From Dudresnaya verticillata (Eukaryota), in NCBI GenBank assembly GCA_977862235.1, contig OZ374563.1, positions 186,001-250,000 of the forward strand: a DNA stretch of 64,000 nt. The letters are read 5' to 3'. Positions 1 through 56,953 of this stretch are shown here, piece by piece. The notes under the pieces were generated by a model. It had not been told where the DNA came from. It saw only the letters and a list, made by a program, of their open reading frames with translations, and did no database searches. Position numbers and translations under genes: made by a program. Within the stretch, counting starts at the first letter, position 1, and each line of letters begins with the position of its first letter.

Positions 1-729
1 TATTGGTTGCAGTGGAAAGGATAGGACGAGGTGACTTGGAAGGTTTTTCCTTTCGCGTTCAGTCCTGGACAGGAAGTATGCTTCCTGCGGTAGACAGGAA
101 GTATGCTTCCTCTCTACGAGATACAGTGGAACAATACATTTTCCTCCGCGATTGTCACAATAAAATAGCTCATTTGTGTTGACTTGGTTATACCCGCGCA
201 GATATCCGTTGCTAGTGAATTGTTAACACACTACAACAATTGCGGAAGTTGGTATGGTAGCAACCGGAGTTCTCGTGCTATGTTTTCAGCTTTCGTCGGA
301 CTTCGCATACCTTGCAGTTCATCCCTTTGCGAGGGATCCGATATAGCTGCAGGATTAGACCAGAGGATGAGAAAGTGGTATGTGCAGAAGATGAGGAGGA
401 TGTCTGATGGCCTCGAAGATATTGTGTACGTAATATGAGTTGATATCCATGGACAGTGGAAACCAAAACCAATATTGAAATAAGATCATATCCGAGCTGC
501 ATGTGGGCATGAATGCAATATTTTCCAACCGGGTAGGAGATCTGAGGTTGATCTTTCTTGACAAACTCTGCCGCGGCACGTCGCGACTTTATTACCAGCT
601 CCTCGGATTTCTTTGTCAAGTGGACAACGTTTTACTAGGCTCGCCATGCCCAGGAGGGTTCCTGGTCTTCCAAAGCGCGCTGGTGTTGTAAAGGGGATGA
701 AGTAGAAGTGGAGACGTTACCGACGTGGA

Positions 730-3700: not shown

Positions 3701-5150
3701 AAGATCTCAGGAGGTGTCCAAAAGATGCGAAATCGCTTTCAAGGTTGTTGAATCGTTCTCAAAAGTCGTAACAGAGCTATGGTACTGGCCCCGCGAAGGT
3801 ATTGATGGTTTGGAGGAATTGAAGTATTTTAGCGCTAACAATGGGAACACCCGGATTGAAAGACTAGAACAATTAATTGAAGAACATATCGATGAGGTGA
3901 TGTTGTTGTGCACATTTAGCTCACACATGGTATCCAAACTAAGATCTATAATAGGGCAACGAGGCTCTACTGCTGTGAACAGGAGATCTGCTCTTATCCG
4001 GGACTTGAAGGAAGCTTGTCAGGCGAGGGCGTTCCTGGACTGCCCTAATATGCATCGCCTGAAGGAACTATCAGTAGTGCTACTGCCAATGGTAGGGGAT
4101 ATTGGAAGAGGTTCGGAACTGGTTTTTGAGAGAGCGCATCAAGCCATGAAGCGGGCAATGCAAAGGTCGAACCACATAATCCCACATATTGATGCCATGA
4201 ATGCAGCACAAGTTAATGATTGGAAGGGTCGGTTGAGAATGCTAATCAAAGAGCTCGACTCTCCTCACGCGGATGAAGTGCGTAGTGCATACCTAGGAAT
4301 TATAAGGTTGGTTTGTGGAAGAGAAGAAATTTCAGAAAGAGATGGGAAGCTTCTAAGAGATGATGTCAACTTCGTTCATCGTGTTATCGGCCCGAAGGGC
4401 ACCGTGGATAAGATAATCGAGATAGAAGGGCGGGATGTAATGAACACTGCTACATTGTACACATCTGAAGTTTCCTGGGAGCTTGATAATCCGAAGTGGA
4501 CTGTAACATGCCCATATTCCATCACTTCCGAGGCAGATGTCTCTTCGGCCAACTGTATAGAGTCACAGAAAGAAATGGGACAGGAAACGGTAGATATTCT
4601 ACATGGAACAGGAGGTACAAGATCAGGAACGAGGGTGAGGATGCTTGGATTCAAGGATTATGACATATATATTGGTGACGTCATCCAAGTGCTTTCTTAA
4701 CAAGGAAACGCTCGTCCTGTTTGCTGGCCATATGTTTTGACAGGAAAACCGGACGGAAGGTTTAGCTCTGGAAGTAGTTCTGAACAGGAGCGGGGGCACC
4801 AGGAAGTAACGTTTTGGTGGGTATTGTCATTGTTCAGCGCAGGAAACAATGTCGGTGCCCTTGTTCTCCCATGCAAAATCGCATCTCCTGGCTCGACTGA
4901 AGATCATGTAGAGAATGAGACTCAGTTGGATACGTGCTCATCTCCTCCGTATGAAATCAAAGTACCTGAGAAAGGACCATCCGTACTGATTTTGACACAA
5001 TTCTGTAGGCGTGTCGGGGTAGTTCACTTCTGTGGGGATGGATGCGGTCCTGCCGAGGGAAAAGAACTTGTGCAACATGACAGACACCTGCTGGAATCCC
5101 AGTTCTTCATTTACGACCGCAGAGCTGGATTCCCTCCACATAAGGGGTAA
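730..5150 (+). pseudogene. Degenerate CACTA/EnSpm (CMC/Plavaka-like) DDE transposase gene split by frameshifts and stops
   Basis: Consecutive + ORFs (730-951, 933-1931, 1984-2511, 2571-4700, 4737-5150). The 709-aa ORF has LFWDGF..SGEGVYMIPLNLP..R, IGDTPA, CHLC, APDHLLCGH, PNMHRL and ELVFERAH, the motif order of CMC transposases. 4737-5150 continues in frame after the TAA at 4698-4700. The true 5' start is uncertain. Confidence 0.7.
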
Positions 5151-5574
5151 GTTACGTGCTGTTCAAAATATGTAGAGAATGAAAGAACGTGTGCTACTCT
5201 TGTACACCCTTAAGGGTAGCAGAAACGCATTTATACCTCTATTGTCAGCGGAAGTAAGTAGCTTTCGGAACCTTGTGCTTTACTCATGAATGGAGAAAAT
5301 GGTGGTCAATGTATGAGCTTTGCGATGAGGAGGATAGAAAGTTCTGGCCCGGGCCCCTGATCGCAGAGCTAACAGCTGTTAAGAGCGTCTCCTGACAACT
5401 GTGAGAGTGGCGTATTGCATACCAGAGCCCCGCTGTAACAGGAACTAGCAGCTGCTCAAACGTGTTCCAACCCTGGACAGGAGATCATTTAATTTTGATT
5501 GCTACGCAATTGACTGGAAGCAAATGAAAAGCGAATGTTTATCATAGGAAAGACCCCTAAGCCAATGAGATACA

Positions 5575-6348
5575 CTATTTGTCGGAAGAGAGCTCTTCCT
5601 GGTCCGTCACGTCCGGGCCGCCCAGAATGATGCGGTGTGCTCCAAGTTGAGCGTTGTGCCAAAGAACGTCCATAACGGAAAAGCCAGCAACGGGGCGGTT
5701 TCCATGTGATGGTGAGCTCAGGAGCATAATCGGTCCCGAAAATGAACCTAAAGATGTCAAGAGAAGAATAAGGAAGGGCATTGCAATCTCACAGGAATCC
5801 AATACAAATATAGAAGTGAACATTTCAAAGGCCCTCCTTCTATCTCCGGAAGGACGTAGACACGACGTGAGGATATGTGCACTGATTTCTTCCATGAGAT
5901 GTGGAAATGATTCCATATCACATATCACGACATGGCACTCAGAGAGGTCCAACTCTGGATCAATGCAGTTTGGTTTCCAAGCCGTTGCGCTACGGCTTCC
6001 AGTTCCAGATCGCGACACCCACTCCGCAGTATTGAAAACATTCAGTGAAGCACTGGTACCATCGGCGGAGAAAAGCTCAACCATTCTTAACTCTCCTGCG
6101 AGATCAGCTGCGCTTTCCTGAGTGGAGGTGATGAGAAGACTAGTCATGCAGGCTTTCCTATCCGACGATTGGCATCCATTTTGGATATCCTTCCCAGCAT
6201 TGCCACACCGCTTTTCTAGCTCCCATTGCAGTAATTCCTCGCTCGCAGTAGCGGAATGGTATCCAAGTAACGTCCTTCCTGTCGGGAAGCCACAGAGCAT
6301 GCAAATAGTAGATCTGATGATCCGAACACTTTCAGTCGGAAGAATCAT
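5575..6348 (-). CDS. Hypothetical protein, possibly a degenerate DEAD-box-like RecA domain
   Basis: 257-aa ORF. LLITSTQESAADL, HVVICD, IFVLDSCE and MLLSSP fall in the order of SF2 motifs Ia, Ib, II and III; no Walker A. Confidence 0.35.
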   Translation of the reverse strand: MILPTESVRIIRSTICMLCGFPTGRTLLGYHSATASEELLQWELEKRCGNAGKDIQNGCQSSDRKACMTSLLITSTQESAADLAGELRMVELFSADGTSASLNVFNTAEWVSRSGTGSRSATAWKPNCIDPELDLSECHVVICDMESFPHLMEEISAHILTSCLRPSGDRRRAFEMFTSIFVLDSCEIAMPFLILLLTSLGSFSGPIMLLSSPSHGNRPVAGFSVMDVLWHNAQLGAHRIILGGPDVTDQEELSSDK

Positions 6349-6711
6349 CTGCGATAAATATCAAGCTAAAAAATTGAAGCTGGGACGCATGCGTCTCAAG
6401 CTGGAAAACATTTTCAATTGGAGTGGTCTTTGGGCAGTATATACTGGTGATATACTATAGTATCTTAAAATTGTAAATCACTACGTTGCTGTGTACATGT
6501 TGCAACAAATTTTCGCTTGGACGCATGCGTCTCAAGCTCCAACGCCCTTGAACTGGAGGACGCCCACAGCCTGCGTGTTAAGCTCGAAGGCATTTTCCAA
6601 TCGAAAGATGTCCCATTGGCAAGCTTATGGGAAGCACGTAAAGTACTTGTTTACTTCAAAAGATCATACGAGGCAAAAGATCATACGAGACATCGCAACG
6701 CGTATACGTAT

Positions 6712-8067
6712 CTACGCATCAACTCCACTGCTATGGTCATCCGCAGAATCTTCGGAATCGGAATCCGACGAGTTGCGAACATCCGCTGACTTCCTCCGAT
6801 CTTCGGCAGTAACTGGAGTCGTTCTCGGCGCCTTTTTGCCTCGCTGGGACGCATGCGTCTCACGCTTCTCAGCATTTCCTTGGGAAGACTCCTGATCAGA
6901 TATACTACGGGTGTCCCTTTCAGGCACGTCCAGGAAGGAAATATCTTCTTCCCAGAATTCGTTGGAGTCATCCCTGCAGACGAACGGATTCGCATTCGCA
7001 GCGCGTAGCTGGTCTGAAACTTTGTAGAAATCCGGAAGAACCCTCAACCTTTCCATATAATGCCAAGATCTGATTTTAGAAACCTTCTCCTCTTGCTTAC
7101 GACGAGCTTCACGAGCGAGACGGTTTTCCTTCTTCAGCAAGGCCTTCGCTTCGACGTACTCGCTGACCAAGTCCTCTAGATTCGGAACTTTTTCGAACTC
7201 CTCGATAATCGGAGACGAAGGTGGCGAGTAGGCTTTGTTCTTGTTCGTATGAGCAGGCAGGACCGTCCAAAACAGCATACGAGAGCCTTGCACGCGTATC
7301 TGCGAGGGCATGTCCACAGAGAAAGCGCTTCTCGGTAATATCGTGATGTCACCGGTATGCATCTTGAACTTCCTCTCGCCCTCTTCATAAGCAGACGCAA
7401 GAGACATAACTTCCGTTATATGCTCGAACATCTCCCCATCTTCATCGCTGTCTGCCTCGCTCGTTAGCGTACGAATTGCACCCCAGCCAGTTGTGACGTA
7501 CGAGAAATCCATGTTGCGCGCAGTTGGAACGGGGCACGCGTCAACGCTGCCTCCTAAGTACCAGAAAACGTAGTAGTCCATTTCCCTCTCGTCGTTAATC
7601 CGGCTTCCAGTATAGAACTTAGAATCGAACCCATACTGAGCTGGGGTTAGCAGAGACGGAGTAGAGCAGCACATCTTCTTCTTGGTGATCGCCGTTAACA
7701 TCTCGGCACTTCTGCACATGACATGGGACAGGGAAGCTTCCTTCGGGGGGTAGTGTAGGGCGATGAACCACTCTGCGTCCGGACCATGGCTAAGCGGAGT
7801 GCTGTGCGTTGTCCTCTTGGCCTTGTTGTACGTGCACATGCTGTCCCACTCCTCCACCGTTCCCCACACCCCGTCCCAGTTGCAGCTCACGTCCGGGATG
7901 CATAGGGCCGCTGCCGCATGGTTGTGCTTGAGGCAGTCCCTCATGGATTTCCAACCCCCATATGCGTAGATAGGGACATCACTCAGAGGGTGATCGTAGC
8001 CGATTGCACGCAAAGTCTTGAAGTTTGGAGCCGGAGCTCCCTTGGTTTTCTTCTTCGAGGACGACAT
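6712..8067 (-). CDS. Hypothetical transposon-associated protein (451 aa)
   Basis: Long uninterrupted ATG-initiated ORF with a globular N-terminus, a charged coiled-coil and an acidic tail; no family recognised. Confidence 0.6.
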   Translation of the reverse strand: MSSSKKKTKGAPAPNFKTLRAIGYDHPLSDVPIYAYGGWKSMRDCLKHNHAAAALCIPDVSCNWDGVWGTVEEWDSMCTYNKAKRTTHSTPLSHGPDAEWFIALHYPPKEASLSHVMCRSAEMLTAITKKKMCCSTPSLLTPAQYGFDSKFYTGSRINDEREMDYYVFWYLGGSVDACPVPTARNMDFSYVTTGWGAIRTLTSEADSDEDGEMFEHITEVMSLASAYEEGERKFKMHTGDITILPRSAFSVDMPSQIRVQGSRMLFWTVLPAHTNKNKAYSPPSSPIIEEFEKVPNLEDLVSEYVEAKALLKKENRLAREARRKQEEKVSKIRSWHYMERLRVLPDFYKVSDQLRAANANPFVCRDDSNEFWEEDISFLDVPERDTRSISDQESSQGNAEKRETHASQRGKKAPRTTPVTAEDRRKSADVRNSSDSDSEDSADDHSSGVDA

Positions 8068-9061
8068 ACGGAGCAGCTGTTGATGAGAAGAAAGCAGAAA
8101 GTGAAAGACAACGAGTGAAGTTCCTGAACGTAGATGATGACAACGCGCTTGACTGAAAATGTGGAGTCGAACCGCGCGCGGCGATCTATTTGGGGGGCTT
8201 TGTATACCCTACGGATGTTTGGGAGTAGTGGGGTTTGGAGCTTCGTATCACCTCGAGGACCGTGGGCCAAGTAACGTCAGCCAGTTTCTTGGGCCATTGC
8301 AGACACTCTGGAATATGCGTCTGAATCAAACGGCCGTTTCAACGGTCTGAAATTATACAAGAGATTGTCCCAGCCCACTGTCGCGCATGAAGTATCATTA
8401 CAGTTTTATTAGGGTGCGGCCAATCTGTTCCATGAATTTACAGCTATGACAAATACGAATACTAAATCTGTACGACGCACGCGTCGCAGCATACAGGCCT
8501 GTGGCCCGGGCCTGAAGACGCTCTAGATCTCGCCCGCGCACGCGCACGGGGCACGCAACTCGCATGCAACAGTATTTTGGAAATCATTAAAGAACCCCAA
8601 CGTCGACTCAGTTCCTGCCACGCTAGCGTCCAGCTGCAGCTTCAGAGCTGACGTGCTGCATACCACCACCGGTAAACCTCCCCCACACACACGCGTCTGC
8701 TCCTTGTAGCACACTCGTGCACTAGTGTACTGTCCAGCTGGCGCACACACTTGCGACATGGACCCACGCCGCTACCGAAGATGGACTTGGGCTGCGGCGT
8801 ACACTAGTCGTCTTAGGAATCAGGTGCTAGGAGATGACACGTTCAGCAGTGACGAAGAAGAGGAGCAAGTGGATCTACAAGAGGAAGACCAAGGCGGCCA
8901 AGTCTGCCAATCAGGAAGGCGTGTTCCGCTCGCGGGAGCGCGACCGTCGAGGGATACGACGCTTAACGACGGTGAAGAAGACAGGACTGTGATCCGCAGC
9001 CACGAGGTGCAGGGCACCCAAGTTCGCACGCGGGCACCCACGGATCTGACCATTTCGCGTC

Positions 9062-9108
9062 GTGTTCTCCTGCCGGGATTCATTGCGTGAATCCCGGCAG
9101 GAGAACAC
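9062..9108. repeat. Perfect 21-bp inverted repeat (hairpin, 5-nt loop)
   Basis: GTGTTCTCCTGCCGGGATTCA-ttgcg-TGAATCCCGGCAGGAGAACAC. Confidence 0.95.
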
Positions 9109-9169
9109 CCACCTGAACGGCAACCATCATCATGCGGTGGTGCGCGACGCAAGGGATAGACGTCAAGAG

Positions 9170-9487
9170 ACGGAGACTCCGGCGGCAACTGCAGCTGCGA
9201 CGCATGCGTCCCAATCCAACGGCGCGCCCGTCGTAGGGCGCCCCCAGTCTCCATGGGTGGCGGAGATAGCGGCGGCAACTGCAGCTGGGACGCATGCGTC
9301 CCAAGCAAACGGCACGCCCGTCGTGGGGCGCCCCCAGTCTCGACGGGTGGCGGAGACAGCGGCGGCAACTGCAGCTGGGACGCATGCGTCCCAAGCCAAC
9401 GGCGCGCCCGTCGTGGGGCGGCGCCAGTCGCGAGAGGTGGGGGAGGCAGCGGCGGCACCTGAAGCTGCGACGAATGCGTCCCAAGCC
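9170..9487 (+). repeat. 90-bp tandem repeat, about 3.5 copies (30-aa coding repeat)
   Basis: GGCGGCAACTGCAGCTGGGACGCATGCGTCCCAAG... recurs with period 90 (palindrome cores at 9199, 9289, 9379, 9469). Confidence 0.9.
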
Positions 9488-11032
9488 CTCGCGGTGGCCC
9501 TGTATTGGAATGTCCATGAGAACTGTTCTAATACTATTGTCGCAGACATTATCGACAGCATGTTGACGACGATAGTTATGAAGGCCGCGGGAGGTTTGGT
9601 GCAGGGCACTGGAGATATTGGGAAACCTACAGGTGTGGGAGAGGAAACGCCTGCATCCTTGGGACTCTTCCAAAGAAGCCATGACCCTAAAGGGGTAAAG
9701 AGAAGTGGGAACCCGGATGGCCCGGAACCACCGACCAAGAAGCCCAGATCGGACGCAATCGTAGCGGGACAGAGCAGCGTGAAACGGTTGTGCGAAGTTC
9801 TTCCGATGCAGGATGCAGTTCCGGGCCTAACCACCTCGGAACGTAAATTCGCGGCCATGAGGAGGAACATACGAGACGGGGGATTCATTGTGCGCTATAG
9901 TGAATTGCAGGTGTTTTGAAGGAGGACTACTATGGTCAACGACGAGTTCCTGAACTTATTCGTTCGAGCCATCAATCGCCGCAATTTTGAGAGTTGTAAG
10001 CGTCCAGACGGTCGCAAAAGGTCTTTCATTTTCACATCTTTCCTACTTCCCGCACTGGTGATATCTTCGAGGAAGTGCAATGGCAACGCGTATACACTTT
10101 CGAGTAAGTGGTTTGGAAATCAAGTATCGGAAAGCTATGGAAGGGAGTTTGTTATGGCTGACTTCGAGATTCTGATGATGCCCTTACACCTGGGTGGCGA
10201 TCATTGGGCCCTTCTCATCGCTAATTCTTCTCGTCGCTGTGTTCAAGTGTACGACTCACTGCAAACCACAATGAACAACCAAACCAGGGATGCAGTGCAA
10301 CTTTTTAAGAGCTACATATCAGGGGAGGACTCTAATACAAGGCACAGGAGGCGACTTACTCCTTGGACAGGGATCATGGAGTGGCCGACGCATCAGGATC
10401 AGTCCCTTCCAAGACAGGACGACGCCTACTCCTGTGGAATTTTCGTCATGTTTGTAGCCCATTACATTGAGAGGGGTTGCTGCCCCAAGTTTGGGGTGGA
10501 AAACATTACTGTTCTGCGAAGTAGAGCGGTAGCTATAGTGCAAGGTGTCGACATTTCGAAATAAATGCCCCAATGTCTTTGATGACCGATGCTAGCACCG
10601 TTAACCAAAGCTTTGACTGCCTAGCCCTTATCGGCTGATAACTTAATATATGCAATTGAATGGGCATTTGCGTTTGTTCAATAAGCAATTTGCTCGACGT
10701 TTTCATAGCTAAGGCTCGTTCCATGCACGCATGCATGTATAACTGCGCGGTTCTTTGTGGGAGGCATGCGTCCTAGCAATATACATGCAGGACATCGTAC
10801 ATCGATGTGTGTCGTGCGGAGTGGGACGCATATGCGTATATGCCGTATGCATGTGCCTTCACTTATCCGATCCTATAGCGATGACTGTATTTTGAAGTAG
10901 TTATTGTGCGAAGATATCACATTGAGGTAAACGGAATCTTTATTTTCGACATACTGGTTCCAGCTGGGCACGTGCACTACAATTATAGTACTACAAACTA
11001 GTGTGTCTTTTGTGCACACATCTTTCCAACCA

Positions 11033-14000
11033 TTATTGCTCAGCAGCAGTAGCATTTAAATTGGGACAACAAGTACAAGTAAGACGAAGGCATCCGAAGT
11101 AGCACCATTCCACATCACAGTCAGACAAAAGCCGGGCTCGGTTTTCGAATACAGATGTTTGCTTTGCCCGTGCACGAATGTTCCCTATGATGAAATGGAA
11201 AGAGAGTAGTGCAACGTAAAAGTGACATCCTGAGTTTCTAAGAGATCTGCAAAGAAGCTTGATCCCTCTGTTTCTCTGCTCATGAGAAACTGTATTTGCC
11301 AGATCCAACTCCTTATGCGAAGAAGGTATAAAGGATGGGGAGCAACCCGTATGGTTTGAGGCATGGAACTTATCTGACACAATAACTGTGTTCTGAATTC
11401 CCGACCATAATGTGTGAACAGCACTTGCATAAAGACCACAAGCAAAGTCATAGATGATGTATCGCGGGAATCTGGCAAACTTGGAAGCAATCATGTCCAA
11501 AACAACTTTTGGCCCTTCGTCACGGAAGAGAACCTTGAACCCGAGAACGACTGGATTGGAGCACGAACAAGACATCGTCATAGCTCCTGGCGTGTAGTCT
11601 TTCTGTTTCTGATAAAATGTCTTCGAGCACGGACCTAACTTCTCTCTGTTGCTGTAACTCCAATCCTCAGTGTCAAACGGAAACGGTCTGACTTGGGGTC
11701 GCCCTGGAAAATAGTTGCCAGTTACAACTGCGCAGCGAACAGTGTCTGATTCGTTCATCTTGTGTTCGATTGCCAAGTTCGCGCCATACTTCTCATTCAC
11801 CTTGGACAGAAGAGCTCCCTTGTCTGTAATACTTAATTCCTGGCAGAACTTCAGTGCCGTGAACTTCCTTGTTACTGACGATATGCCCGCTGCGACTCTC
11901 GAGGATGCATTTTCATACGATTTGTAGAACGTATCGATGCATTCTGCAGATGATGCGTAAAACTTCCCAAGTGCTTCACGTGCTGCAAAACCTGCTTCAG
12001 GTTTCCCTCTGCGTCGCGTTCCATCACAGTCACTGTAAAAATAGCTGCTCGAATAAATCTATTCGTCCTCACCACTTTGCTTTCATTTCTTGTTGGAACT
12101 ATCCCGTGCATAAATTGCACAAAGGGGCTAATGTCTTGGTTCAGACACATGCGTCCCATTCCAGAAAGTGACAGTAATTCTTCTCTTCTGATACACTGTG
12201 TCAGCGGTCCTTGAAGAACAATATGGAACAACCGGAAGATCTCATTTCTTCTGTCTCTATGGTAAGCGGTTGTACCTTGCCGAAAGGTTTCCGTCCAGCA
12301 TGTTCCTGAACGAACAATTGTACTCAAGAGCGGGCCTTCTAGATGTTCCAAAGTTTCTGAAACAGCCAACAGAACGTTTTCTGTCCTGGACTTCTTTGGA
12401 TTTGGCTCCTCCGGGAAAAAGGACGATGTCTCGCTCGAGATCTCGCTTCCAGACACATAGACACCCGCCCTTACTAGGAAGTCCTTGTCCCTATTCCTCA
12501 GAAATTGCATCAATGAGCGCAACGGTTGTAGTAGTCGATAAATCATACTGTCTGTATGGAACAAGGCATTTGGAAAGCTCCCGTATAGATTGCAGCCATG
12601 TGTTTGAACCTATGTCATTGAAGTAGTCGTTGGGTGCATTTCCGCATATAGAAGCCGGGTAGAAATGTGTAGGCAGCAAATCGGGTGAGAGTATACGAAT
12701 AGTTTGAACGAAATCCTCTATGTTTTGTTTTGTGCAAATGATGTCTTCTCCTTTTGCCGCTCCCAAAAGGATTTTGGGGACTCCAGTCCTTCTGATTAAA
12801 GAAGTCATCGGCTTTCGATGCAATTTCCCACGACCCACTTGAGACGCACGCGTCCCAGACCGATTTAGGAGAGGCTCGCAAGACTCAGAAATGTTCCGTA
12901 TCGGGAGCTGCAGTCTGCGTTTGTATCCTTGCTGAATCCCATCCACGCAAATTATTCGAAGTTCACGACTGGGACCCTCGCATCGCGAGCAAGTGAAAAG
13001 GGATTCAACAGAGTTCATAGTCATTAGTCGTAACATTAATCAACATAGTTTGCGAAGGGTTCGCACAGAACGGCACTGCGGAATGACTGGTAGTAACCCA
13101 AACTGCTGGAGCGATATTACTTGTGAATGAAAGTGTGAGAGCCGTCCACTTAAAGTCCCATTAGACAGTGCCACACCAGTTAGCTCCCGTCTCAGAAAGG
13201 CGTGCGTTGCTGCAGACGTCCCAGTGTCCAGAAGAATACAGTTTTCTCTGCCTTCTGGTTGGATTTTCGCGTCACAATCTTCAGAACTGCATTTGAATAC
13301 CTCCATCCTCATTTCACACGGGCCAATACTGCACATTACTATGCCTTCCTCGCTCAGTTCCCTCGTCTTGGGGTCTCGGGGAGATCTGCACTTCTGACAT
13401 ATGTTGGGAGCTTGTACAATATACTTCTCTCGTCGCTGCGCTGCAAGGGCGACTGCATTGCCGACATGCAGTGCTCTAGAGCAATTGACAGGGGCCAAGG
13501 GAAGGTGTGAAATGTGTTGTGCCGATTCTGATTCCTCCTTCTCCATATCATCTTGATCCTCTTCTCGGTTTTCATCAGTATCCAATAGGTTACTGTGGTC
13601 CACGGCGATGCTAGTATGTTCACAACCCCCTCTATGCAAAGTGTCACAAAACGCGCAAGCAAAAAACTTTCCCTTGTTAATAACCCTGACGGGCACAAAG
13701 TATAACCATCCTTTCTCTCCCAGAAGACAGGAGGTTAAAAGCACCCTTCCATTGTGCATTAATACGGCCTTCGGACATGACATTTTGTATGCAGAAAAGC
13801 TCACTTCACTTCTATTCTCATACAATTCGGCAACTGCTCGAGCTGTCGTCTTCGTAGAAACACTGTATAGAGAAGAGACCTTCTCAATGAATGAAATAAT
13901 TCCTTTAATATGAATGCATTGTACCTTGTCAATATTTCCATGCAGTACAGTTTGGGACGCATGCGTCTCTCCTCGTTCTTGTTCGGATTGTGCATGGGCC

Positions 14001-14956
14001 GAATGAGACTCATGCGTCCCAGTCCCCGACGTACCATCCAGATCCCTCCGCGATGAATTCGGCGAGGCTTGGTGTGCCCCGCCCATCCCGTCCTCATGCT
14101 CAGATGGACTTGCTTCTTTGTCCACGATGTCGATTTCGTCTATTAGAATTCTGAACGAAGTTATTCCAATGCAGGTGCAGAACAGTTCCCCTTGCCGTGA
14201 TATCCATGTCACAACTGCGTGCTTGTCCATGCCCTTTCCGCCCTCTGCAGCAACTTCTGAATGTGCCAATTTCGTACTAATAACAGGGTGTGGGCAGTTC
14301 GGAAGGATCTCATGTGGCCCAAATGTCTTCGTACTGGTTTTAAGGACATCACGAATAATATCCGAGAACTTCTTTAAACGTTCCCGTCGCTCATCTGGAT
14401 CACTATTATCTACACCACTCAACGGGACTAAATGTGAATCGAGCTCCTTGCAGAGATCCAAGTCATTGCCTCCGCATGCTGCGCAAAGTGTCCTAACCAG
14501 TACTTCTGGAATTTTTCGTTCCATTGCCCTCCGCCTCTGCGCTGGTGTCCCAGCATAGCGACGCCCGCCACGGTCGTGCGAAGTTCCAGGCCGGGCTTGG
14601 CGTTCAACACGGAAGTTATTTGCGTTGCAAGCAGTTCCATGATCAGATTCCTCCGTACTATGAATCACTTCGCCGTTATTTTCTTGGACCAGAGAAGTAT
14701 TTCCCTCACTCAGCCGACAAAACGCAGGATCTTGACCTTCATACATTCTCATTACTGACCATATATCTCGCAGCCCGAACTGAACTTCTTCTGGGACATT
14801 TGATATTCCTGCTTCCGTATCAATTTCATTCCATACCGTATTGCTTCCCACTTCTCCTTCTTGCAGCAACGAATGCACTTGGTGCAATTCTTGCTCAGAC
14901 CACTCAGACATTCCCCCACCTCCCAATGTCATGGAGTGTATCTCGCTAAGAACCAC
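11033..14956 (-). pseudogene. KDZ (Kyakuja-Dileera-Zisupton) transposase with SWIM/CxC-like Cys-His motifs, disrupted
   Basis: The C-terminal ORF has GAMTMSCSC..VLGF...EGP, IIYDFACGL, SDKFHASNHTGC and NTVSHEQRN (KDZ core). Upstream pieces have FTCSRC..IICVDG, LFCTC...CIH and CAFC..CEH. There is an in-frame TGA at 13040-13042 and frameshifts near 12.5 kb and 11.85 kb. Confidence 0.75.
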
Positions 14957-15615
14957 ACTTCGAAATTGCTAATGTTGTAGATTCAGAACAACAGCCCACA
15001 ACCGCAGTTCTTGGATGGGCACAAAGAAGTACACCTGTGAGCTCGAGCTCACAGATATCTCAGCTCTCGGTATTTATTTGCAGTTCTCGTCGCACTACCC
15101 ATGGAGGATGATTGGAATGCCTCGCAGACTCTGTAACGGTATGCCATTCGGGCAATTGTAATATTCTTATATCGAGAGGGGTGTACTGCATCCTCATTTG
15201 GATACAACCAATAAAATTATTTATTTGGGCCCAAGCTTCCCACATTTCTGCCAATCAATTACCGCCACTGATTGGGACGCGTGCGTCCTATAATACCAAT
15301 TTTTGTATGAGACTATATGAAGCACTGTACGACTGGTACCACCTTGTTCTGCTACAAGGAAGCGTCCCACGAATGGCGTACGCATGCATCCCGGTTTTAG
15401 CCCGGCGAAAGCTGTGATATTTTGATATTTTGATTCCTGAACATATCATTTGGTGCCGTAACAGCCTCTCGCGAGCCATAAATTCCCGCGAGACTGAAAC
15501 GAACCGAAACACCTAGAAGGTTTCAGCCAGATTGCCGCGTTATTCCCCGTAGTACCGTGTGGTGCGCACTTCTCACTCGTTGCCCCACACGCTTCTTCAC
15601 TTCTTGAGCACAGAA

Positions 15616-17081
15616 ATGGGCACTCAACTCGATAACGTGCAGAGAAGAGCATTTCAGTCCTTCCGCACTGGGCGATCGCTGGCCATCCTCGGCGGTGCCG
15701 GTAGCGGCAAGTCCTTTCTACTGCACGAAATTATTGATCACGCAACGAAAGCGGTTGGGGACTACCCGAACATTGCCGTATGCGCTTTCACGAACAGGGC
15801 GGCAAAAAGTTTGAACGGGAGAACCATTCACTCCCTCTTTGCTGCCCCAGTGAGTTGGCCTTTTCAAGTGGATAAGCTCCTCGAAGAAACTGCGAAGACT
15901 GCGGGCGCTGTTACTACACTTCGACAAATTCAAGTCCTCATCATCGATGAAATAACACACTTGACCGCAGGAATACTTGACAGCATAGATGGGGTTCTGA
16001 GGGAGCTTTCATCTTCCAGAAATTCTTCCCTCCCTTTCGGGGGACGTCAAGTAATTCTAGCAGGGGACCCGTTCCAACTCGAGGCGATCCCACAAAGGCA
16101 TGGAACATCAGAAGAGAATATGCAAGTGTTTCATGCTCGCTCCTGGTTCCTTAGCTTCGGGGGATTTGGAACGGGTGCTGTGGCGATTCTTTCGGGTAAC
16201 CACAGGCAGGCTGGTGATCAGGAGTACTTCGATCTTCTTGAGAGAGTGCGCTGCGGAACATTCAGCGATGAGGACGTCAACAAATTAACAGAACAAGTGT
16301 TGGGATATCTTCGCCTCCGTCACACTACACAAGACTTTGCTTGGAGAATAATGAAGTGGACACGATAAACGAAACATATCTGGCTAAGAATCGCAATCCT
16401 TCCTTCTATCATAGAGCTGAGGACAAATTTCACACTGCCCAGCATGGTGGAGTTCACTCCAACTGCATAAGGGTTCTGGATTCAATGGCCCGAAGGGTCA
16501 TCCACGTAAAAGTCGGGGCCATTGTTCTCACTACTATGAAAACGGGTGCGTTGCTTCCCGGCTCTCGGGGTACAATATGCGGAATTGTAACAAATGCTCA
16601 TGACACGAGTGCTATTTCGGCATTGAAGTTGAGAACTGATGACGACACAATTCACACAATGTCTCCTCGCCTGTTCTCAAGTCGAAACAGAAAAGCAGAA
16701 GTAATCGCTACGCGGAGGCAGTTCGCTATCGTCCCTGCTTATGCTACAACGATTCACAGAGCTCAAGGACTCACCCTCTCGAGAGTGGCTGTTTCATTCA
16801 AGGATATTAACAGATGGAAACCGTTTGGGATGGTATACGTGGCATTGTCAAGATGCACGTCTCTTCAAGGTGTGTGGGCATCAGGGTTAACTAGAGCACA
16901 CATTATTGTAAGCCCGCAAGCAAGGTACTGCTGCACAAGAATTTCGAAGCTGCGAAAATATTATCCTTCTCGAGTAATAGAGGACATGAGTACGTCTAAC
17001 ACTGAATCCTACATTACTGAAAAGAAGAGGGTCCGTGGAAGCGCTCACGCCGACTTTCCGGACGCTTCTGTGCCAAGGTGA
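15616..17081 (+). pseudogene. Pif1-like SF1B DNA helicase, frameshifted near 16.3 kb
   Basis: GGAGSGKS, GRTIHS, LIIDEIT, PFGGRQVILAGDPFQL and NHRQ in the first ORF; AYATTIHRAQGLTL and YVALSR in the second ORF. Confidence 0.85.
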
Positions 17082-17605
17082 CGTACGGTATAAGTGGAAT
17101 CTGTTCCTTTGGCGCGCTTAATGCACGTGCATAGTGGTAGGAAGGCACCAGCAGCAGATTATATGCACGTATAGAATACCTGTCCCACAGAAGTATATAA
17201 GAAATATAATTCCGCAAATATGCAGCAATTAATGTTTTAATCTAAGAAAAATAAATCTCATTTTTTCTGAGACGCACGCGTCTCTGACTGATAAAACTAT
17301 AATTTTCTTACTGAGACTCACGCGTCTCAGAGCACAAAAATAAAAAGTAATTTTTCTCAGACGCACGCGTCTCTGACTGACACCGTGACGCGGCGTGTAT
17401 ATGGTGCTATGTCCAGAACGTCATAATTGTATCCCATTGTGAAAGAGTGGGGCGCATGAGGTTTAAAGAGACGTGTGCGTCGCACTGTTTCCATCTTAAT
17501 GACAAATCAACCTTTATACTCATTATTTCGACTTCCTTTTCAAACCTACAGTTCATTCCGAACGAGTGAGGCGCATGCGTCCTAGGTACTCGCAACTATT
17601 GAAAA

Positions 17606-19392
17606 TCAACCTGTTGACTGAATGCATTCAATCCGACTTTTGTGCCAGAGAAAAGCCTGGAAAGGAGGAAGACCCGTAACTAGTTTCGGCACTCTTTGAC
17701 CTGAAAAGTGCAGAGTTCTCATATCCTTCAATTCTCTCGACTTATACCATTCAAAGTAGGGGTACTTAATGTCTTCAAGGTAACCGTCGTCGTCAACCTC
17801 GCCAAGATCAAAGTGGAAATCAGCCAGGAGAACTGCTCCAGTAACATGAAGGGAACCGGGTTCAAAACGCGTTTTCACATTCACTTTCACACCTTTCCAG
17901 TCAACAAGAATCGCGGTCCCGATATCCAAATATTCTCCCTTCACCCTAACCCTCCCAAGACTGTTCTTCGGCCATGACACAGGACGGCAAAGGAGGCTGT
18001 CCATGCTCGGATTTTCTTCGTGTGCACTCCACGTCCCAGAAAAAGAGGTGAGATCGTGTCCCTCTGTTATGGAGCAGAACCGAAGTGATATATTTCCGGA
18101 AGGAACAGGTCGGCCCAGGACGTGTGTTTGGAACGGGTCAACTCTTCCAGTCCCAAGCTTCATTACTCGCAAATTGTCTTGGAAAATATTGCAAGTTGCA
18201 GTTGGCTTCTCAGGACAGTTCCGAGGACAAACTGAGCAGCCTTCTCTATCGTATCCAGAGAGCGCAATGTCCCTTCAAATCTTACTCACTGCGATATGTC
18301 TCGGATTCTTCTGGAGAAGAATTGAGAGGAGAGCGTAGTGAACATCTCGTCCATTTCTGCTCACATTGCTGATCTGTAACGTCACAGAGTGAGAACCGTT
18401 AACTTGAAATGGGCGACCATTCAAGCCCTTCCTCAGTGTCAACCGTGAGAAGGACACTTTTTCCCACGAACATCGTTCGGGACAATGCTGTTGTACTTAA
18501 TTCCAGAAGTCCTTTGTCCGTCATCTTTCATTTTCTTCTTTGCTGCTTCAAACATGGCAGATACAGCCTGGTTGAGGACTGTTTTCAGTATGAGATCGAA
18601 ACTGTCGACGTCAGTACTCCGTTGCCGAGAACGACAACCAGCTGCGCTAAGCATCAGAGAAAGGCATCTTGCTGCGTCCTGATCCCGAATGTGGAACGTT
18701 GAAGAATTAGACTGGACAGCGTTTCGATCGGGTTGCACTCGGCCTATTTAGTTTCGCATAGTTGCGTCACCAACCCGGATTATACCCGGTTGATCGGTAC
18801 TAGTTCCATCAAGAATGTAAAGAATAGCCCGATCTGCGATATTTCGTTGAACAGCGCTTCTTCTCACGCCAGGAAGAATATTTGGGGTCTCGATAAGAGA
18901 CGCACGCGTCCGAAGTTGGTTTTCGACCACGTTCGGGCCCCAAAGAACGACGATGTTTTGGCTGTCCTGGCTTTGGTTGTTGTCCTTACCGCATGACTTT
19001 GCACTGAGGAGCAGTGATATTTTTCCAGCTCGCGGATCAGTGTTAATGACGTATTGAACGAACTGTGCGTTGCGGCGCATATTTTCCAATGCAGACGTCA
19101 CCAAACTGCGTTCTCTGCATTGTACGGACCCGTATATCGTGTCCACACTGTGCTCAAGACTGTTGTTAGTTCGACGCATAGTGAAGATGACAGTTATTCG
19201 CAGTTGCCGTGGGTAGGAGAAGGATGGACATGAAAGGGACAGAGATATTTGAGATCGGGTACTTATTGTTTCAAGTAGGAGAGGGGTGCATCCAATAACC
19301 AGAGGTACACTTTGACATGTAAACGTGTACCTCTCTACCCGGTGTACCCCGTCTCTGCCAATGAAAATCGCGAACGGGGTAGAGAGGTACAT
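17606..19392 (-). pseudogene. Fragmented hypothetical ORF series of the mobile island
   Basis: Adjacent minus-strand ORFs (18748-19392, 18439-18738, 18275-18457, 17606-18172) with a Cys cluster between the last two; no family recognised. Confidence 0.35.
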
Positions 19393-20378
19393 TTTTCAGC
19401 TTTTCAGCTCAAAATGCACCTCTGCTGTTATGAAAAATGTGCATTGCCGATGAGTAGTTTTGCTGTCCTGATTAACGAAGTACTCCTCCCCGTAACGGCT
19501 GTTTATACTGAGACCGGCTTGTAGCTCGCATTTCGGTTCGAGTCGAAACAATAGAATGCACTACGGGACTCTTCAATACTACCGAAGGATGGTCCCTTTT
19601 AGTTGTGGGACGCACGCGTCGTACTAAGCTAGTTTCGAATATGAATAAGTGCTTCGTACAGTTACAAAGGTTGTGTTTACTTGTTCGATACTCTATACCG
19701 TTCATGAATGCCTTTAAGTACAAGGCTGCATAGTTTACTGGGCAAAGGAGGAGTGCCACGGAGAAGATAACTCTAAAATATGCAATATGTCTATGTCTCT
19801 AAACATTCTCTTCGATCTTAAAGTCGGCTGTGCCTGTTTCGCGTGGGTGGCCTTCAACGGTCAACAATCGTACAGGCGTCATCGGTTCTGAACGTCTCGT
19901 TTACAGTGGCCTTTTTGCTATTTTCAAAGCGCTGTACTGGAGAACGGCGACGGCAGTCAGTATGGGTCTCGTAATGCCGTGGCGGGCCCTCTCAGGCCTC
20001 TCGGTTCTGCCGCCGCGTTACAATTACCGCAATTACTCGCCGTGGCGTAACGCGTAACGCTCCTGCCCTCACCGCCGCCGCAGACGTTCCATAGCCACCA
20101 CGTGTTCCGCCAACTCCACACACGCGCTCCTTCCACTCCTACACTAGCGCGGTACACCGTATACCCCATCTACCCCAAAAACTCCCGCCCAAATGTACCC
20201 CTACTATTTCCCACGTTCATTGACCCCGGAGAAGTTCGTCACTCCGCAATGCAATTGGCCGCCTAAAGCACGCCATCGTCATGTCACCCAATAGTGAGCC
20301 GAACTTTATGCTACCACGGCGCGTGGCGTTACCCAATGTTATGACAACACTTGGCGAGTCCCGAGTTGCAATTCCCGT

Positions 20379-20914
20379 AGAATGAGAAATAACTCAAGCC
20401 ATGATGCTTCCCGCAGATGGACGCATCTGCGTGGCAGAGTCGGAGTCGGCCAAAAATAAGGCCTAAATTTTGCAGCATGCACGATTCTTGCGTCAACCCG
20501 CTGACCTGTCCCGATCAAAAGCTGATCGTTCGATACTGATCTGCAATCCCTCCGAGTCCATATTCGCCTTGGAAAAGGCCTCCTACAGTTAAACTATCCA
20601 TTGCACCAATCCCACGTTTGACTCCCGGGCTCGGTGTCGGCCTGCTCAGGCAGAGCCCCCGTAATCGACCGAGGCCCACATTGCAACCGAGCAGCAGCCT
20701 TCTTGCTGCCGCTTGCCGACAGCAAGCTTGAGGGCGTGTGTTTCATGTAGCTGTCACAGCATCCGTGCTAATGTATGTGCAATTTCATAGGCGGGCCCCC
20801 GCCGTATCACGCAACAGGCAGACCGTTGATGGCTGTCAGCCTGTGGGTTATGTAGTACAAAGTCAAGTTCAAGCTCTATGAAAATTTCAACCTTTGCTTC
20901 CAAAGTGGTGGATA
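20379..20914 (+). repeat. Left arm of a ~540-bp diverged inverted repeat
   Basis: Reverse complement of 22714-23264, e.g. GATGCTTCCCGCAGATGGACGCATCTGC, AAATAAGGCCTAAA and AAGCTCTATGAAAATTTCA. Confidence 0.9.
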
Positions 20915-21809
20915 CTGGCATCGGAACAACAAAGTTTTCTGAAAGCAGAAATAGAGACAAAGATGTTGTGTGCTCAGCAGAGAGGAACAACCGGGCAGTA
21001 TCGATTTCGGTGGCTTTGAACAGAGGACGGCAGGCCCTATCGGTTTACTGTTAGCGATACGATTATAGGACGATAAGGTAGAATAAGTACGATATAGTGC
21101 TACTCGTTCTTTTGCGCTGTAGCGCGCTGCCGATGCGAAGGTTGAGAAAAGTGGGACATACAAAGCCGGCAACCGAGTCCAAGGCGAAAGAAACTTGTTA
21201 AAGATACAGATCATGGAACACCTGCTCCTTGCGGTACAATCGAGCGCAACGTGCTCGGTGTGCAGCGCCAGCATTCCTTTTGGTACCCGGGCAGCTCTGC
21301 CGTTTAGTGATTTTCGAGTGACCGGCGTCCCAATCGTGCATTACTGGCGTGTCACGCAAGCTGTTTCCCCGCGCGGCGTTTTGCAAGACTGCGTGCACAA
21401 TATATCGGTTGGCTCTAATGCATGGGCTCGTTCGTCGCACAGCTTACCAATAAACGGTTTATCCAAACGGTGCAGAATGCAGACAAAGTACATCACACGC
21501 ATCGTACTAACGTATTATCGGAAGGGCCTGCGGTCCTTCTCCAAGAAGAAAACGTTTCGACTCGATGAGGCCAGTCGCCGAATAGAGGAATTCATTACTG
21601 AGAACCGGTACAACGGGGGCTATGCTGGCAGGCACGGTTACAAGCTGCATTACTAAACGATGTTCACTCGACTTCAAGCTGCTTTCAACACTTTCTGACC
21701 ATCCCCTTTTCTAAACAGATATTCTTACAACGCATTCTTTCCCACCAGGCGTGACGCCACCAACACTGGAGAATGTGCGCAATTTTCGTATATGCTGTCG
21801 CCACCAAGT

Positions 21810-22604
21810 CTAGCAAAACACTGTAGTTTCAAGGCGGTTCCGTAAAACTTGTCCACACGAAGCGGCAGCAACTGCCGTTGTACACGGCATGCAGAACAGG
21901 CTGTCCACAACAGACTGCGGTAACGTAAAGTCCAATATGCACTGCGCTCTCGACTTGATGAAGGAACTCGAAGAGCTCCCTTCCACCTCATTCGGCCCGG
22001 TGCACGTAAACAGTAAAGTTCCGAAGGTATCACCCCCAAGAACAAAGTCGCCATCGTCGCTGACCTCGCACCTGCAAGGCGGCACCACAGCTGCACTTGA
22101 TGTCGAGGGCGAAGCAGAGGGCGAAGCAGAGGGCGAAGCAGAGGGCGAAGCAGAGGGCGAAGCAGAGGGCGAAGCAGAGGGCGAAGCAGAGGGCGAAGCA
22201 GAGGGCGAAGCAGAGGGCGAAGCAGAGGGCGAGGATGATGCCGAGGGTGACGCCGATGGTGACGCCGAGGGTGAAACCGACGGCGAAACCGACGGCGATG
22301 GTGTCATAGACGGCGTCGGACTTTGCGAAGCGCAAACTTCGGAGCACTGAGACGAAGCCAGCTCGAGCGTGAGTTGGCAACGCCTGCGATTCCTCTTGGC
22401 GCGGGAGATGCACTTCGGGCGCTTCGCCTTATTCAGCGTACGGCACTGGCGTCTGTCATCCTTGAACTGCTTTTTGCAGGCATTTTTGTTGCACCGCCCG
22501 CATCTCTTGGTCACCGCCTGACGGACATTCGATGAAGCGAGGAAAGCAGCGAATGCTTGTGACAGCGACAGGCCGAGGAGAGTGAAGAACAAGAGGAGCT
22601 TCAT
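21810..22604 (-). CDS. Secreted Cys-rich protein with (SPSA)n linker
   Basis: Signal peptide MKLLLFFTLLGLSLSQAFA, a basic Cys-rich domain, SPSA repeats and a C-terminal Cys-rich domain; TATAA about 110 bp upstream. Confidence 0.75.
   Translation of the reverse strand: MKLLLFFTLLGLSLSQAFAAFLASSNVRQAVTKRCGRCNKNACKKQFKDDRRQCRTLNKAKRPKCISRAKRNRRRCQLTLELASSQCSEVCASQSPTPSMTPSPSVSPSVSPSASPSASPSASSSPSASPSASPSASPSASPSASPSASPSASPSASPSASPSASPSTSSAAVVPPCRCEVSDDGDFVLGGDTFGTLLFTCTGPNEVEGSSSSSFIKSRAQCILDFTLPQSVVDSLFCMPCTTAVAAASCGQVLRNRLETTVFC
22105..22233. repeat. 12-bp tandem repeat (GAGGGCGAAGCA), about 10-11 copies
   Basis: Directly visible; encodes SPSA on the minus strand. Confidence 0.95.
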
Positions 22605-22713
22605 GGCGTTGTGGGTCAGATGAGAACGGCAGTGTGCAGTTGCTTGCGAAAGGTGCGACGGCAGGCTACACAAACAAAACGAATCGCATGTGCAAATCGA
22701 GGTCAAGAGGTCT

Positions 22714-23264
22714 TATACACAACTTTGAAAGCAGAAGGGTGAAATTTTCATAGAGCTTAAACTTGATTTTGCACAATACACAGGCCGACTGCCATCAGCT
22801 GTCTGCCGGTTGCGTGATGCGACGGGGGCCCACCGATGAAATTGCACATGCATTAGCACGAATGCTGTGACAGCTACATGAAACACACGCCTACAAGCTT
22901 TCTGTCGGCAAGCGGCAGCAAGAAGGCTGCTGTTCGGTTGCAATGTGGGCCTCGGTCGGTTACGGGGGCTCTGCCTGGGTAGGCCGACACCGAGCCTGGG
23001 AGTCAAGCGTGAGATTGGTACAAAATGGATAGTTTAACTGTAGGAGGCTTTTTCCAAGGCGACCAAAACTCCAACGACGGACTCGGAGGGATGGCAGATC
23101 AGTATCGAATGATCAACAGCCGATCGGGACAGCTCAGCGGGTTGACTGCCGCACCAATCGAGCATGCTGAAAATTTTAGGCCTTATTTGTGGTCGACTCG
23201 GACTTTGCCATGCAGATGCGTCCATATGCGGGAAGCATCAAGGCTTTGAGTCAACTCTCATTCT
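22714..23264 (-). repeat. Right arm of the ~540-bp diverged inverted repeat
   Basis: Reverse complement of 20379-20914. Confidence 0.9.
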
Positions 23265-51975: not shown

Positions 51976-52557
51976 TGTTGGGGGGGGGGGGTGGGTCGGG
52001 GCGGGGGTTGAGCGCGTGATGAGAGCGGGGGGCGGAGCGGAGCGGCGCAACAAGAAGGGATGTGAGAAATGGCGCGGTACCGTTGCGGCGGTTAGGAAGC
52101 GCGGGTGTTGCGGTGCGGCGGTTTGGCGGGTGTTTTGGCGTTGCGCTTTGGCGCGCTTAGCGCAACACGCGGCGCGGCGCGAGCGCGTGCGGCCGGGAAG
52201 GCGATGCGTGCTGCCGAGCTCGTGCGCGCGGATCAGCGCCGGTCTCACGGATCACAGCCGCGATCGCGATCCCGACCGCGATCGCGATCCACCCGCTGTT
52301 TTGGCGCGCTGTAAGACCGGCGCCACTGTAAGCCCCCGAAGCGCAACCGCCAAAAAGACACCAACACCGACGGCCACCGACACCGTCCCGCCCGCTCCCC
52401 TCTCCGTCCCCGTCCCCCTCCCGCCCGCCGCTCACCGGGAAGCGATACCACGCGCCGCCACCGTGTGCCCATCGCCGCCCACCGCCGCCTGTCCCGCCGC
52501 CGCTCCACATCCGCTCCCGCGCTCCCGCGCTACCCCGCTCCGCCCCACCCGCGTGCC

Positions 52558-56631: not shown

Positions 56632-56953
56632 CGTGACGGGGGGGTACCAAGCAGCGCGATGAGGGCGCACCGCGGGACAACGGAGGGCAGGGAGGCGGGG
56701 GAGTATCACGTAGTACCTCCGAGGGAAGACGACAGGGCTCATACGCATTGCATGCAGCCAATGGGCGCAGCTCAATTTTGGCGCCAAGCGCGAGGAGAAA
56801 CCGAAACGCAGCGCATGTACCCCCCGGCGAACGGCCGTCCGCTCCCGGAATCTGCGCAACGACGTATACGTCCAGCCGCAAACATCGCACCTTTCCCTTC
56901 GCCACGCCCTCCACCCCGTCCTGCTTTCCCTCCACCCGCGAGCCGTGCGCACC

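What the first reader, a model, noticed from the sequence alone, without database searches (positions are those of the whole stretch)
6384..19620. About 20 copies of a 12-18 bp palindrome (GRGACGCAYGCGTCYC) scattered through one transposon island, including inside coding frames
Seen: the core GACGCAYGCGTC, with flanks often extending to TGRGACGCAYGCGTCYCA, occurs about 20 times between 6384 and 19620. I saw no full copy in 1-6.3 kb or in the 44 kb of host genes. Copies lie in intergenic gaps and also in frame in unrelated ORFs, where they give (E/G)THASQ or TRAS peptides in the 451-aa orphan, the Ulp1 N-terminus and the KDZ gene. Inference: this is an element-wide cis-tag rather than a subterminal repeat. 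It could be a dimeric binding site for an element-encoded protein involved in self-recognition, anti-silencing (conceptually like VANC target motifs in Arabidopsis VANDAL elements) or synapsis. Its distribution may also mark the true extent of the KDZ/Ulp1/Pif1 element.
Basis: partly seen in the sequence, partly recalled or inferred. Interest (0 to 1): 0.85.

Follow-up and report, generated by a model that had tools for sequence, protein, structure and literature searches.

The report
Palindrome tags woven through seaweed transposon
A decayed five-gene jumping element, likely from a red seaweed, carries 21 copies of one palindromic DNA word along its whole length, ten of them inside its genes, while related elements carry different words; these are likely docking sites for a protein the element makes to recognise and keep active its own copies.

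Summary
GACGCAYGCGTC (18-bp form TGRGACGCAYGCGTCYCA) has 14 exact and 7 one-mismatch copies in 6384-19620 and one weak copy elsewhere in 64 kb. Ten lie in coding frames, mostly in loops or extensions, with fixed synonymous codons, so the constraint is on DNA. Half-sites vary independently, which argues for protein read-out, not hairpins. The span matches a five-gene cassette: 2OG-oxygenase-fold orphan, Ulp1, KDZ-type transposase, Pif1, ORF-X. The cassette recurs in another assembly. None of 43 related loci has the exact motif. One, L005, has four in-gene copies of its own palindrome GTCGTATACGAC (1 of 5321 null runs). Two others have local triplets downstream of ORF-X; four of the seven closest show nothing above chance. 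Best reading: a family-specific self-tag read by an element-encoded dimer, probably to keep copies expressed, working like VANC/TnpA and the proposed red-algal PAG3 system. New variant of a known kind: tags recoded into gene bodies.

The parts
6384..19620 (.). Span of the palindrome tag; minimum extent of the multigene KDZ-type element (ends not found)
6384..6531 (.). Sites 6384 and 6520, non-coding, between the 451-aa gene's 3' end and the ORF at 5575-6348
6848..6859 (.). Site in the low-confidence C-terminal extension of the 451-aa protein (ETHASQ); the extension is absent from homologs
6712..8067 (-). Intact 451-aa gene; 2OG-Fe(II) oxygenase fold at residues about 28-289, iron-binding histidines likely lost; candidate reader
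8474..8485 (.). Site in the gap between the divergent 451-aa and Ulp1 genes; L002 has a copy of its own palindrome type in the same gap
8759..10564 (+). Ulp1/C48 peptidase gene, broken (frame change near 9060-9090, stop at 9917-9919)
   Evidence: (PF02902 E=6e-17)
9199..9480 (.). Four sites (9199, 9289, 9379, 9469) in a 90-bp coding tandem repeat of the Ulp1 N-terminus
10761..10772 (.). One-mismatch site between Ulp1 and the transposase gene
11033..14944 (-). KDZ-type transposase gene, broken (stop at 13040-13042, frame changes near 12570 and 11980)
12144..12155 (.). One-mismatch site inside the transposase gene (GRMC frame)
12843..12854 (.). Site in a variable transposase loop (GTRASQ); the closest homolog reads GNRVPR here
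13956..14018 (.). Two sites (13956, 14007) in a transposase insertion absent from P0002-P0004
15276..15287 (.). Site in the gap between the divergent transposase and Pif1 genes
15616..17081 (+). Pif1 helicase gene, one frame change near 16300; no site inside
   Evidence: PF05970 E=5e-21
17271..17581 (.). Cluster of five sites (17271, 17315, 17360 at 44/45-bp spacing; 17470, 17570) downstream of ORF-X; L004 and L006 have palindrome triplets downstream of their ORF-X
17606..19128 (-). ORF-X, conserved accessory gene of unknown family, broken into three frames; second candidate reader
18899..18910 (.). Site inside ORF-X (RTRAS)
19609..19620 (.). Last site, upstream of ORF-X

Best explanation
The 21 palindromes tile a decayed five-gene transposon about every 1.2 kb, inside genes as well as between them, and are likely family-specific docking sites for a protein made by the element, which would bind as a dimer and likely keep matching copies expressed. 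Shown: the sites exist, stop at the cassette, are fixed at synonymous codon positions, lie mostly in gaps and permissive loops, and have independently varying half-sites; a related element carries a different palindrome of the same build inside its transposase gene. Inferred: selection for more sites acts on active copies, sites arise by point change or short duplication where the protein tolerates them, and motif and reader drift together between families. Step odds: protein-binding sites 0.85; element-encoded reader 0.7; role in expression or anti-silencing rather than transposition chemistry 0.5.
For: Confinement and excess. All 7 T[HR]AS peptides in the element's ORFs use the motif codons, although ACG is 30% of Thr and GCG 25% of Ala codons. 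Coding DNA is 9917 of 13401 bases but holds 10 of 21 sites. Eleven clusters, gaps 688-1984 bp, CV 0.35, P=0.0006, 0.010, 0.058 for minimum separations 0, 330, 500. No covariation between arms: position -1 paired in 8 of 21 against 8.2 shuffled. L005 has 4 copies of GTCGTATACGAC within one mismatch in 3.2 kb; 1 of 5321 null sequences and 0 of 43 real tiles reach 4 copies of any palindrome. Both motifs fit G-W-CG-Y-AT-R-CG-W-C. The family sister to the window's branch (support 91/94) carries the same GACGCA half-site with a 2-bp longer centre (L004). Precedent: inverted-repeat arrays next to PAG3 in red-algal transposons; family-specific motifs for VANC and TnpA.
Against: No binding data. No known DNA-binding domain found in any accessory protein. 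The 2OG fold starts near residue 28, leaving no room for PAG3's ParB domain. Of the 7 closest relatives only L005 beats the null for a dispersed palindrome; L002 and L006 carry the 2OG-fold gene without dispersed sites above chance. CpG at codon boundaries is not clearly protected: 0.85 tagged, 0.77 untagged neighbour, 0.91 host, and relatives sit at 0.96-1.07 with or without tags. Kin share labels, so the tree does not show co-evolution. Only one copy of the element was seen.
Confidence: 0.5

Rival explanations
1. The sites are transposase-binding sites that condense or pair the long element for cut-and-paste, an element-wide version of subterminal repeats.
For: Motif type follows the transposase tree; the outermost sites bound the cassette; the transposase has many conserved Cys/His clusters.
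Against: Sites are not concentrated at the ends: the densest clusters are internal (9199-9480, 17271-17581). Most relatives have no dispersed sites yet belong to the same group (82, 105).
Confidence: 0.2
2. The element has collected sites for a host transcription or chromatin factor in order to be expressed.
For: There is a site in both divergent intergenic gaps and upstream of ORF-X; no DNA-binding domain was recognised in element proteins.
Against: No full site in 44 kb of host genes. Elements from one other assembly carry at least two different palindromes (L004 against L005/L006), which a single host factor would not explain.
Confidence: 0.13
3. The palindromes are recombination or replication signals, such as hairpins exposed by Pif1 or crossover sites that invert gene modules.
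For: The Pif1/ORF-X and 2OG/Ulp1 pairs are each inverted as blocks relative to L002, and sites flank both blocks.
Against: No compensatory change between arms; 9 of 21 centres are mismatched; fold z-scores of three sites are -0.6 to -2.9; no recombinase or HUH domain was found; sites lie in every gap, so flanking is expected.
Confidence: 0.08
4. The motif is a neutral by-product: excision footprints, relics of a tiny insert, local duplication, or a site favoured by a DNA methylase (HIP1-like; recalled).
For: Seven of 21 copies come from two tandem duplications; two sit in a lineage-specific insertion.
Against: Flanks of sites in different clusters are mostly unrelated (mean 7.7 of 30 identities, best 16 of 30) and show no consistent duplication; the 12843 site aligns without a large insertion; L005 has a site at VVCD, residues shared with L006, which uses other codons; spacing is more even than random.
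Confidence: 0.09

Closest known systems
PAG3 and its adjacent inverted-repeat arrays in red-algal Plavaka and Zisupton elements (10.1101/2025.02.11.637652; section 8 and passages read, supplements closed)
   Same: Giant algal DNA transposon with accessory genes, one with a PhyH-like 2OG-oxygenase domain, plus inverted repeats proposed as its binding sites; the paper also finds PAG2/PAG3 with Zisupton elements in Bangiophyceae.
   Different: Here the 2OG-fold protein has no room for an N-terminal ParB domain and likely lacks iron ligands; partners are Ulp1, Pif1 and ORF-X; the repeats are spread over 13 kb and recoded into genes, not only arrayed beside one gene.
VANDAL/VANC anti-silencing (PMC5735166, passages read) and Spm TnpA or Mutator transposase activation (10.64898/2026.08.24.746577, abstract and passages read)
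   Same: A short family-specific motif, enriched in cognate copies, partly amplified as tandem repeats, differing between related families.
   Different: Those motifs are 8-10 bp; VANC sites are in non-coding regions and TnpA sites at termini, with binding and demethylation shown. Here the motif is an 18-bp palindrome, half of it in coding frames, and nothing is shown experimentally.
KDZ (Kyakuja-Dileera-Zisupton) transposons (PMC12730594 and PMC12477816, passages read; Iyer 2014 not held, recalled)
   Same: Large Cys-rich transposase, accessory genes, over 10 kb long; fungal members carry another 2OG-oxygenase, TET/JBP.
   Different: No TSD or termini found here; the oxygenase is PhyH-like and likely inactive; no internal motif lattice appeared in the passages read.
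F-plasmid sopC/SopB and dispersed phage centromere sites (PMC3177203, passages read)
   Same: The palindrome TGGGACCACGGTCCCA shares the outer 6 bp of each arm with the commonest form here; 43-45-bp repeat units; dispersed versions exist in three phages.
   Different: 16 against 18 bp with a different core; no ParB or ParA recognised here. A resemblance only, possibly chance.

Membership tests
KDZ transposons | KDZ-type transposase | tested here: met
   Through relatives only: P0003 hits Pfam KDZ at E=8e-5, below the curated cut-off; P0005 carries PF18717 (15); window frames align to P0001-P0004 over most of their length. No direct Pfam hit in the window.
KDZ transposons | 7-8-bp target-site duplication with TIRs (Zisupton) or CA..TG ends (Kyakuja) | tested here: inconclusive
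   No convincing pair between 5100-6384 and 19620-20650 (65); ends may be eroded or lie outside those ranges.
PAG3 system | 2OG-oxygenase domain | tested here: met
   Model pLDDT 74.6 (101); VIA top Z 11.4, rmsd 4.0, 192 aligned; Foldseek E=2e-5 (118); Atlas PhyH 0.94 for homolog P0009, 152 shared features.
PAG3 system | N-terminal ParB-like DNA-binding domain | tested here: not met
   Matches span residues 28-289 from the start of the ORF (117). An unseen upstream exon is not excluded.
PAG3 system | Sequence homology to published PAG3 | not testable with these tools
   PAG3 sequences are in closed bioRxiv supplements.
PAG3 system | Tandem inverted-repeat array adjacent to the gene | tested here: inconclusive
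   Three sites at or in its 3' end and one upstream, but the true tandem arrays lie in Ulp1 and downstream of ORF-X.
Active Fe/2OG dioxygenase | HxD/E...H iron triad | tested here: not met
   No conserved His pair in 44 aligned rows; the four columns with over 30% His are mixed. Ligand positions were placed from the recalled PhyH layout, not by superposition.
VANC/TnpA-type self-recognition | Family-specific motif enriched in cognate elements | tested here: met
   21 sites here, 0 exact in 43 related loci, other motifs in L004, L005, L006 (2, 76, 74, 128). Only one copy of this family was seen.
VANC/TnpA-type self-recognition | Element-encoded protein binds the motif | not testable with these tools
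   Needs DAP-seq, EMSA or ChIP.
VANC/TnpA-type self-recognition | Loss of silencing marks around sites | tested here: inconclusive
   Only a CpG proxy: overall o/e 0.95-0.98 against 0.78 (122), but 0.85 against 0.77 at codon boundaries.
ParB/sopC centromere | Cognate ParB (and ParA) gene | tested here: inconclusive
   No Pfam, PHROG or PDB-sequence match for any accessory ORF (12, 97-100); ORF-X and the 5575-6348 ORF were not folded.

The most novel reading that the evidence does not exclude
Red-algal KDZ transposons run a fast-evolving self/non-self code: each family writes its own palindrome into its gene bodies by synonymous and loop-tolerated changes, and a catalytically dead 2OG-oxygenase-fold protein, acting as a new kind of sequence-specific DNA reader, coats cognate copies end to end to shield them from host silencing.
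Probability: 0.15. Interest if true: 0.9.

Novelty: new variant of a known kind. Interest (0 to 1): 0.62.

Why it matters
How red seaweeds silence transposons, and how giant elements escape, is stated as open in the Bostrychia paper, where binding of PAG3 to nearby repeats is only a proposal. This finding gives a sharp 18-bp motif, a second family with a different 12-bp word of the same build, and three candidate readers, so a swap experiment can test self-recognition directly. It also shows a cis-signal reshaping protein loops of several unrelated genes in one eukaryotic element, and offers a way to delimit degenerate copies whose ends are lost.

Tried and rejected
No whole genome is held and no sequencing run was listed, so copy number, background and expression are untested. 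TIR/TSD search found nothing. Single-sequence fold of the 451-aa protein failed (pLDDT 37) and its Atlas PARP hint (0.83) was rejected once the alignment-based model gave a 2OG fold. Sequence searches for it and for longer ORF-X relatives found none; profile searches of solved structures gave nothing significant. No relative of the transposase in viral contigs. Exact 18-bp scans gave 5 single sites in viral contigs and 29 stretches in prokaryote genomes, a few in repeat-like settings; not linked to this element. GGCATATATGCC in L001/L003/L004 (2, 3 and 1 copies within one mismatch) is not above the null and was dropped. In the high-GC relatives the signal in L011 is one 90-bp tandem array; L012, L014 and L021 were not inspected singly. 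Positional conservation was rejected: two of four L005 sites lie about 10 codons from window sites, none on the same codon. Host proteins were not in the cluster collection, so the red-algal assignment rests on recall. Five look-ups of earlier findings returned nothing. Not in print as far as searched: the three motif strings hit 3 unrelated papers by listing; topic searches listed no description of a gene-body palindrome lattice in algal KDZ elements. The journal version and supplements of the Bostrychia paper, and Repbase entries, could not be seen and may describe similar repeats.
Full report
Observation. GACGCAYGCGTC occurs exactly at 14 places, all between 6384 and 19620, against 0.01 expected. 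One mismatch adds seven more in that span and one at 28738. A matrix from the 21 sites separates them (17.9-31.9) from everything else in 64 kb (10.5 or less). The consensus is 18 bp, TG(G/A)GACGCAYGCGTC(C/T)CA. Four copies belong to a 90-bp tandem repeat and three to a 44/45-bp repeat, leaving about 16 independent sites in 11 clusters.

The element. The span holds five genes: a 451-aa ORF (-), Ulp1 (+), a Cys-rich transposase (-), Pif1 (+) and ORF-X (-). All but the 451-aa gene are broken by stops or frame changes, so this copy is decayed. The transposase aligns to P0001-P0004. One of them hits Pfam KDZ below the cut-off and a distant relative carries CxC6. A scan of metagenome contigs gave 43 related loci. 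The seven from one assembly carry parts of the same cassette: L002 all five genes, L006 four, L003 three, L001 and L004 two, L005 and L022 the transposase only. No TIR or TSD was found. The host looks red-algal by recall of its plastid-targeting peptide and gene style; no call names it.

DNA-level constraint. Ten of 21 sites are in coding frames, though coding DNA is 74% of the span. Nine share one frame. All seven T[HR]AS peptides in the element use the motif codons, where ACG and GCG are 30% and 25% of their amino acids. Where homologs allow a check, coding sites mostly lie in parts that they lack or vary: the C-terminal tail of the 451-aa protein, a transposase insertion and a loop that reads GNRVPR in the closest homolog; the 12144 site is in an alignable stretch. 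Pif1 and the catalytic ends of Ulp1 and the transposase have no site inside but are flanked by sites. Cluster gaps are 688-1984 bp, more even than random under two of three nulls (P=0.0006, 0.010, 0.058).

Sequence, not hairpin. The two arms vary independently at every position (for example 8 of 21 paired at -1 against 8.2 shuffled), and 9 of 21 centres cannot pair. Flanks of sites in different clusters are mostly unrelated and show no consistent duplication. This fits half-sites read by a symmetric protein and not a stem-loop, an insert or a footprint.

Relatives carry other words. None of the 43 loci has the exact motif; four have one copy with one mismatch, none among the seven closest. L005, 3.2 kb of transposase gene, has four copies of GTCGTATACGAC within one mismatch. 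With a maximum-over-all-palindromes test, 1 of 5321 null sequences and 0 of 43 real tiles reach four. Both words fit G-W-CG-Y-AT-R-CG-W-C. Two L005 sites are about 10 codons from window sites and none is on the same codon, so sites were likely gained separately. L006 has three degenerate copies of the L005 type between Pif1 and ORF-X; L002 has two weak ones. L004 has three copies of a 14-bp GACGCAATTGCGTC type downstream of ORF-X, where the window has its five-site cluster. On a tree of the catalytic region (24 rows) the L004 family is sister to the window plus P0006 (91/94), and L002, L005 and L006 group together (84/83); kin share labels, so this is only consistent with co-evolution. Against the reading: L001, L002, L003 and L022 show nothing above the null, and L004 and L006 only local triplets. 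Of 39 loci tested, five exceeded the null; four of these are high-GC relatives, and the one inspected is a tandem array.

Candidate readers. A profile search found 48 relatives of the 451-aa protein. Folded with 44 rows it gives pLDDT 74.6 and matches Fe/2OG dioxygenases over residues 28-289 (VIA Z 11.4; Foldseek E=2e-5; Atlas PhyH 0.94 for a homolog). The family has no conserved histidine pair, so it is likely a pseudo-enzyme; ligand positions were placed from recall. ORF-X is conserved in L002, L004 and L006 but matches no family and was not folded. No recognised DNA-binding domain was found in either.

Mechanism. Most likely an element-encoded protein binds each palindrome as a dimer and, with sites every 1-2 kb, covers cognate copies to keep them expressed or unsilenced; Ulp1 may help by removing SUMO marks (inference from family function). 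The CpG proxy gives little support. Rivals are transposase pairing sites (0.2), host-factor sites (0.13), recombination or hairpin signals (0.08) and neutral origin (0.09).

Comparison. The closest report is in red algae: PAG3, with a ParB-like and a PhyH-like 2OG domain, has tandem inverted repeats beside it and was proposed to bind its own transposon (10.1101/2025.02.11.637652, section 8; methods passage; supplements closed). The window protein meets the 2OG feature but not the ParB feature, so it is not filed as PAG3. VANC binds non-coding, tandemly repeated, family-specific motifs (PMC5735166, passages); TnpA motifs cluster at Spm termini and mirror element phylogeny (10.64898/2026.08.24.746577, passages). 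The system works like these but is not shown to be a member. The outer arms match sopC (PMC3177203, passages), a resemblance only. KDZ termini and sizes are from PMC12730594 and PMC12477816, passages only.

Verdict. A real, sharply bounded, family-specific palindrome lattice in a KDZ-type transposon, with independent support from one relative and partial support from two. The kind of system is known or proposed; dispersal through gene bodies and motif turnover between families are the new parts, as far as searches show. New variant of a known kind; interest 0.62.

Noticed in passing
window 921-5150 (+): Four long ORFs with no Pfam hit at the cut-off; the 735-aa one resembles an EnSpm/Plavaka-type transposase by recall only. 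No palindrome here; CpG o/e 0.78 over 1-6300 (122). Likely a separate element.
   Followed up: partly
window 5575-6348 (-): ORF of about 257 aa with no family match and no hit in related loci; it may belong to either element, and sites 6384 and 6520 lie just upstream of it.
   Followed up: partly
window 9062-9108: Perfect 21-bp inverted repeat with a 5-nt loop (z=-9.65) at the frame change in the Ulp1 N-terminus.
   Followed up: partly
window 19321-19396: Imperfect 23-bp inverted repeat upstream of ORF-X.
   Followed up: no
window 20396-23246: Arms of about 500 bp, 87-97% complementary, enclose a gene for a secreted-looking protein with a Ser-Pro/Ala repeat (21810-22712): a foldback or Pack-type element (9, 10).
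   Followed up: no
window 6384-19620: The centre is CATG in most left-hand sites and CACG/CGTG in most right-hand sites, which suggests local homogenisation.
   Followed up: no
window against L002, L006: The Pif1/ORF-X pair is inverted relative to L002 and L006, and the 2OG/Ulp1 pair relative to L002; the L001/L003/L004 family has a third order.
   Followed up: partly
L003 6444-6630 and 8592-9185: About ten direct repeats, mostly at 72-74-bp spacing, around an imperfect inverted repeat, in two groups downstream of Ulp1; possibly subterminal repeats.
   Followed up: partly
L011 3757-5002: 90-bp tandem array (13.8 units) with a 14-bp palindrome right after the transposase gene in a high-GC relative.
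   Followed up: partly
L056-L058, L062, L064, L070: The same 18-mer occurs in repeat-like settings in a few gammaproteobacterial genomes (three tandem copies in L057; three contigs of one genome).
   Followed up: no
window 50296-52251 and 56714-58333: Two E2F/DP-family genes within 8 kb among host genes (TIM, HisHF-type, dynamin, HDAC, DDRGK, lipoxygenase).
   Followed up: no
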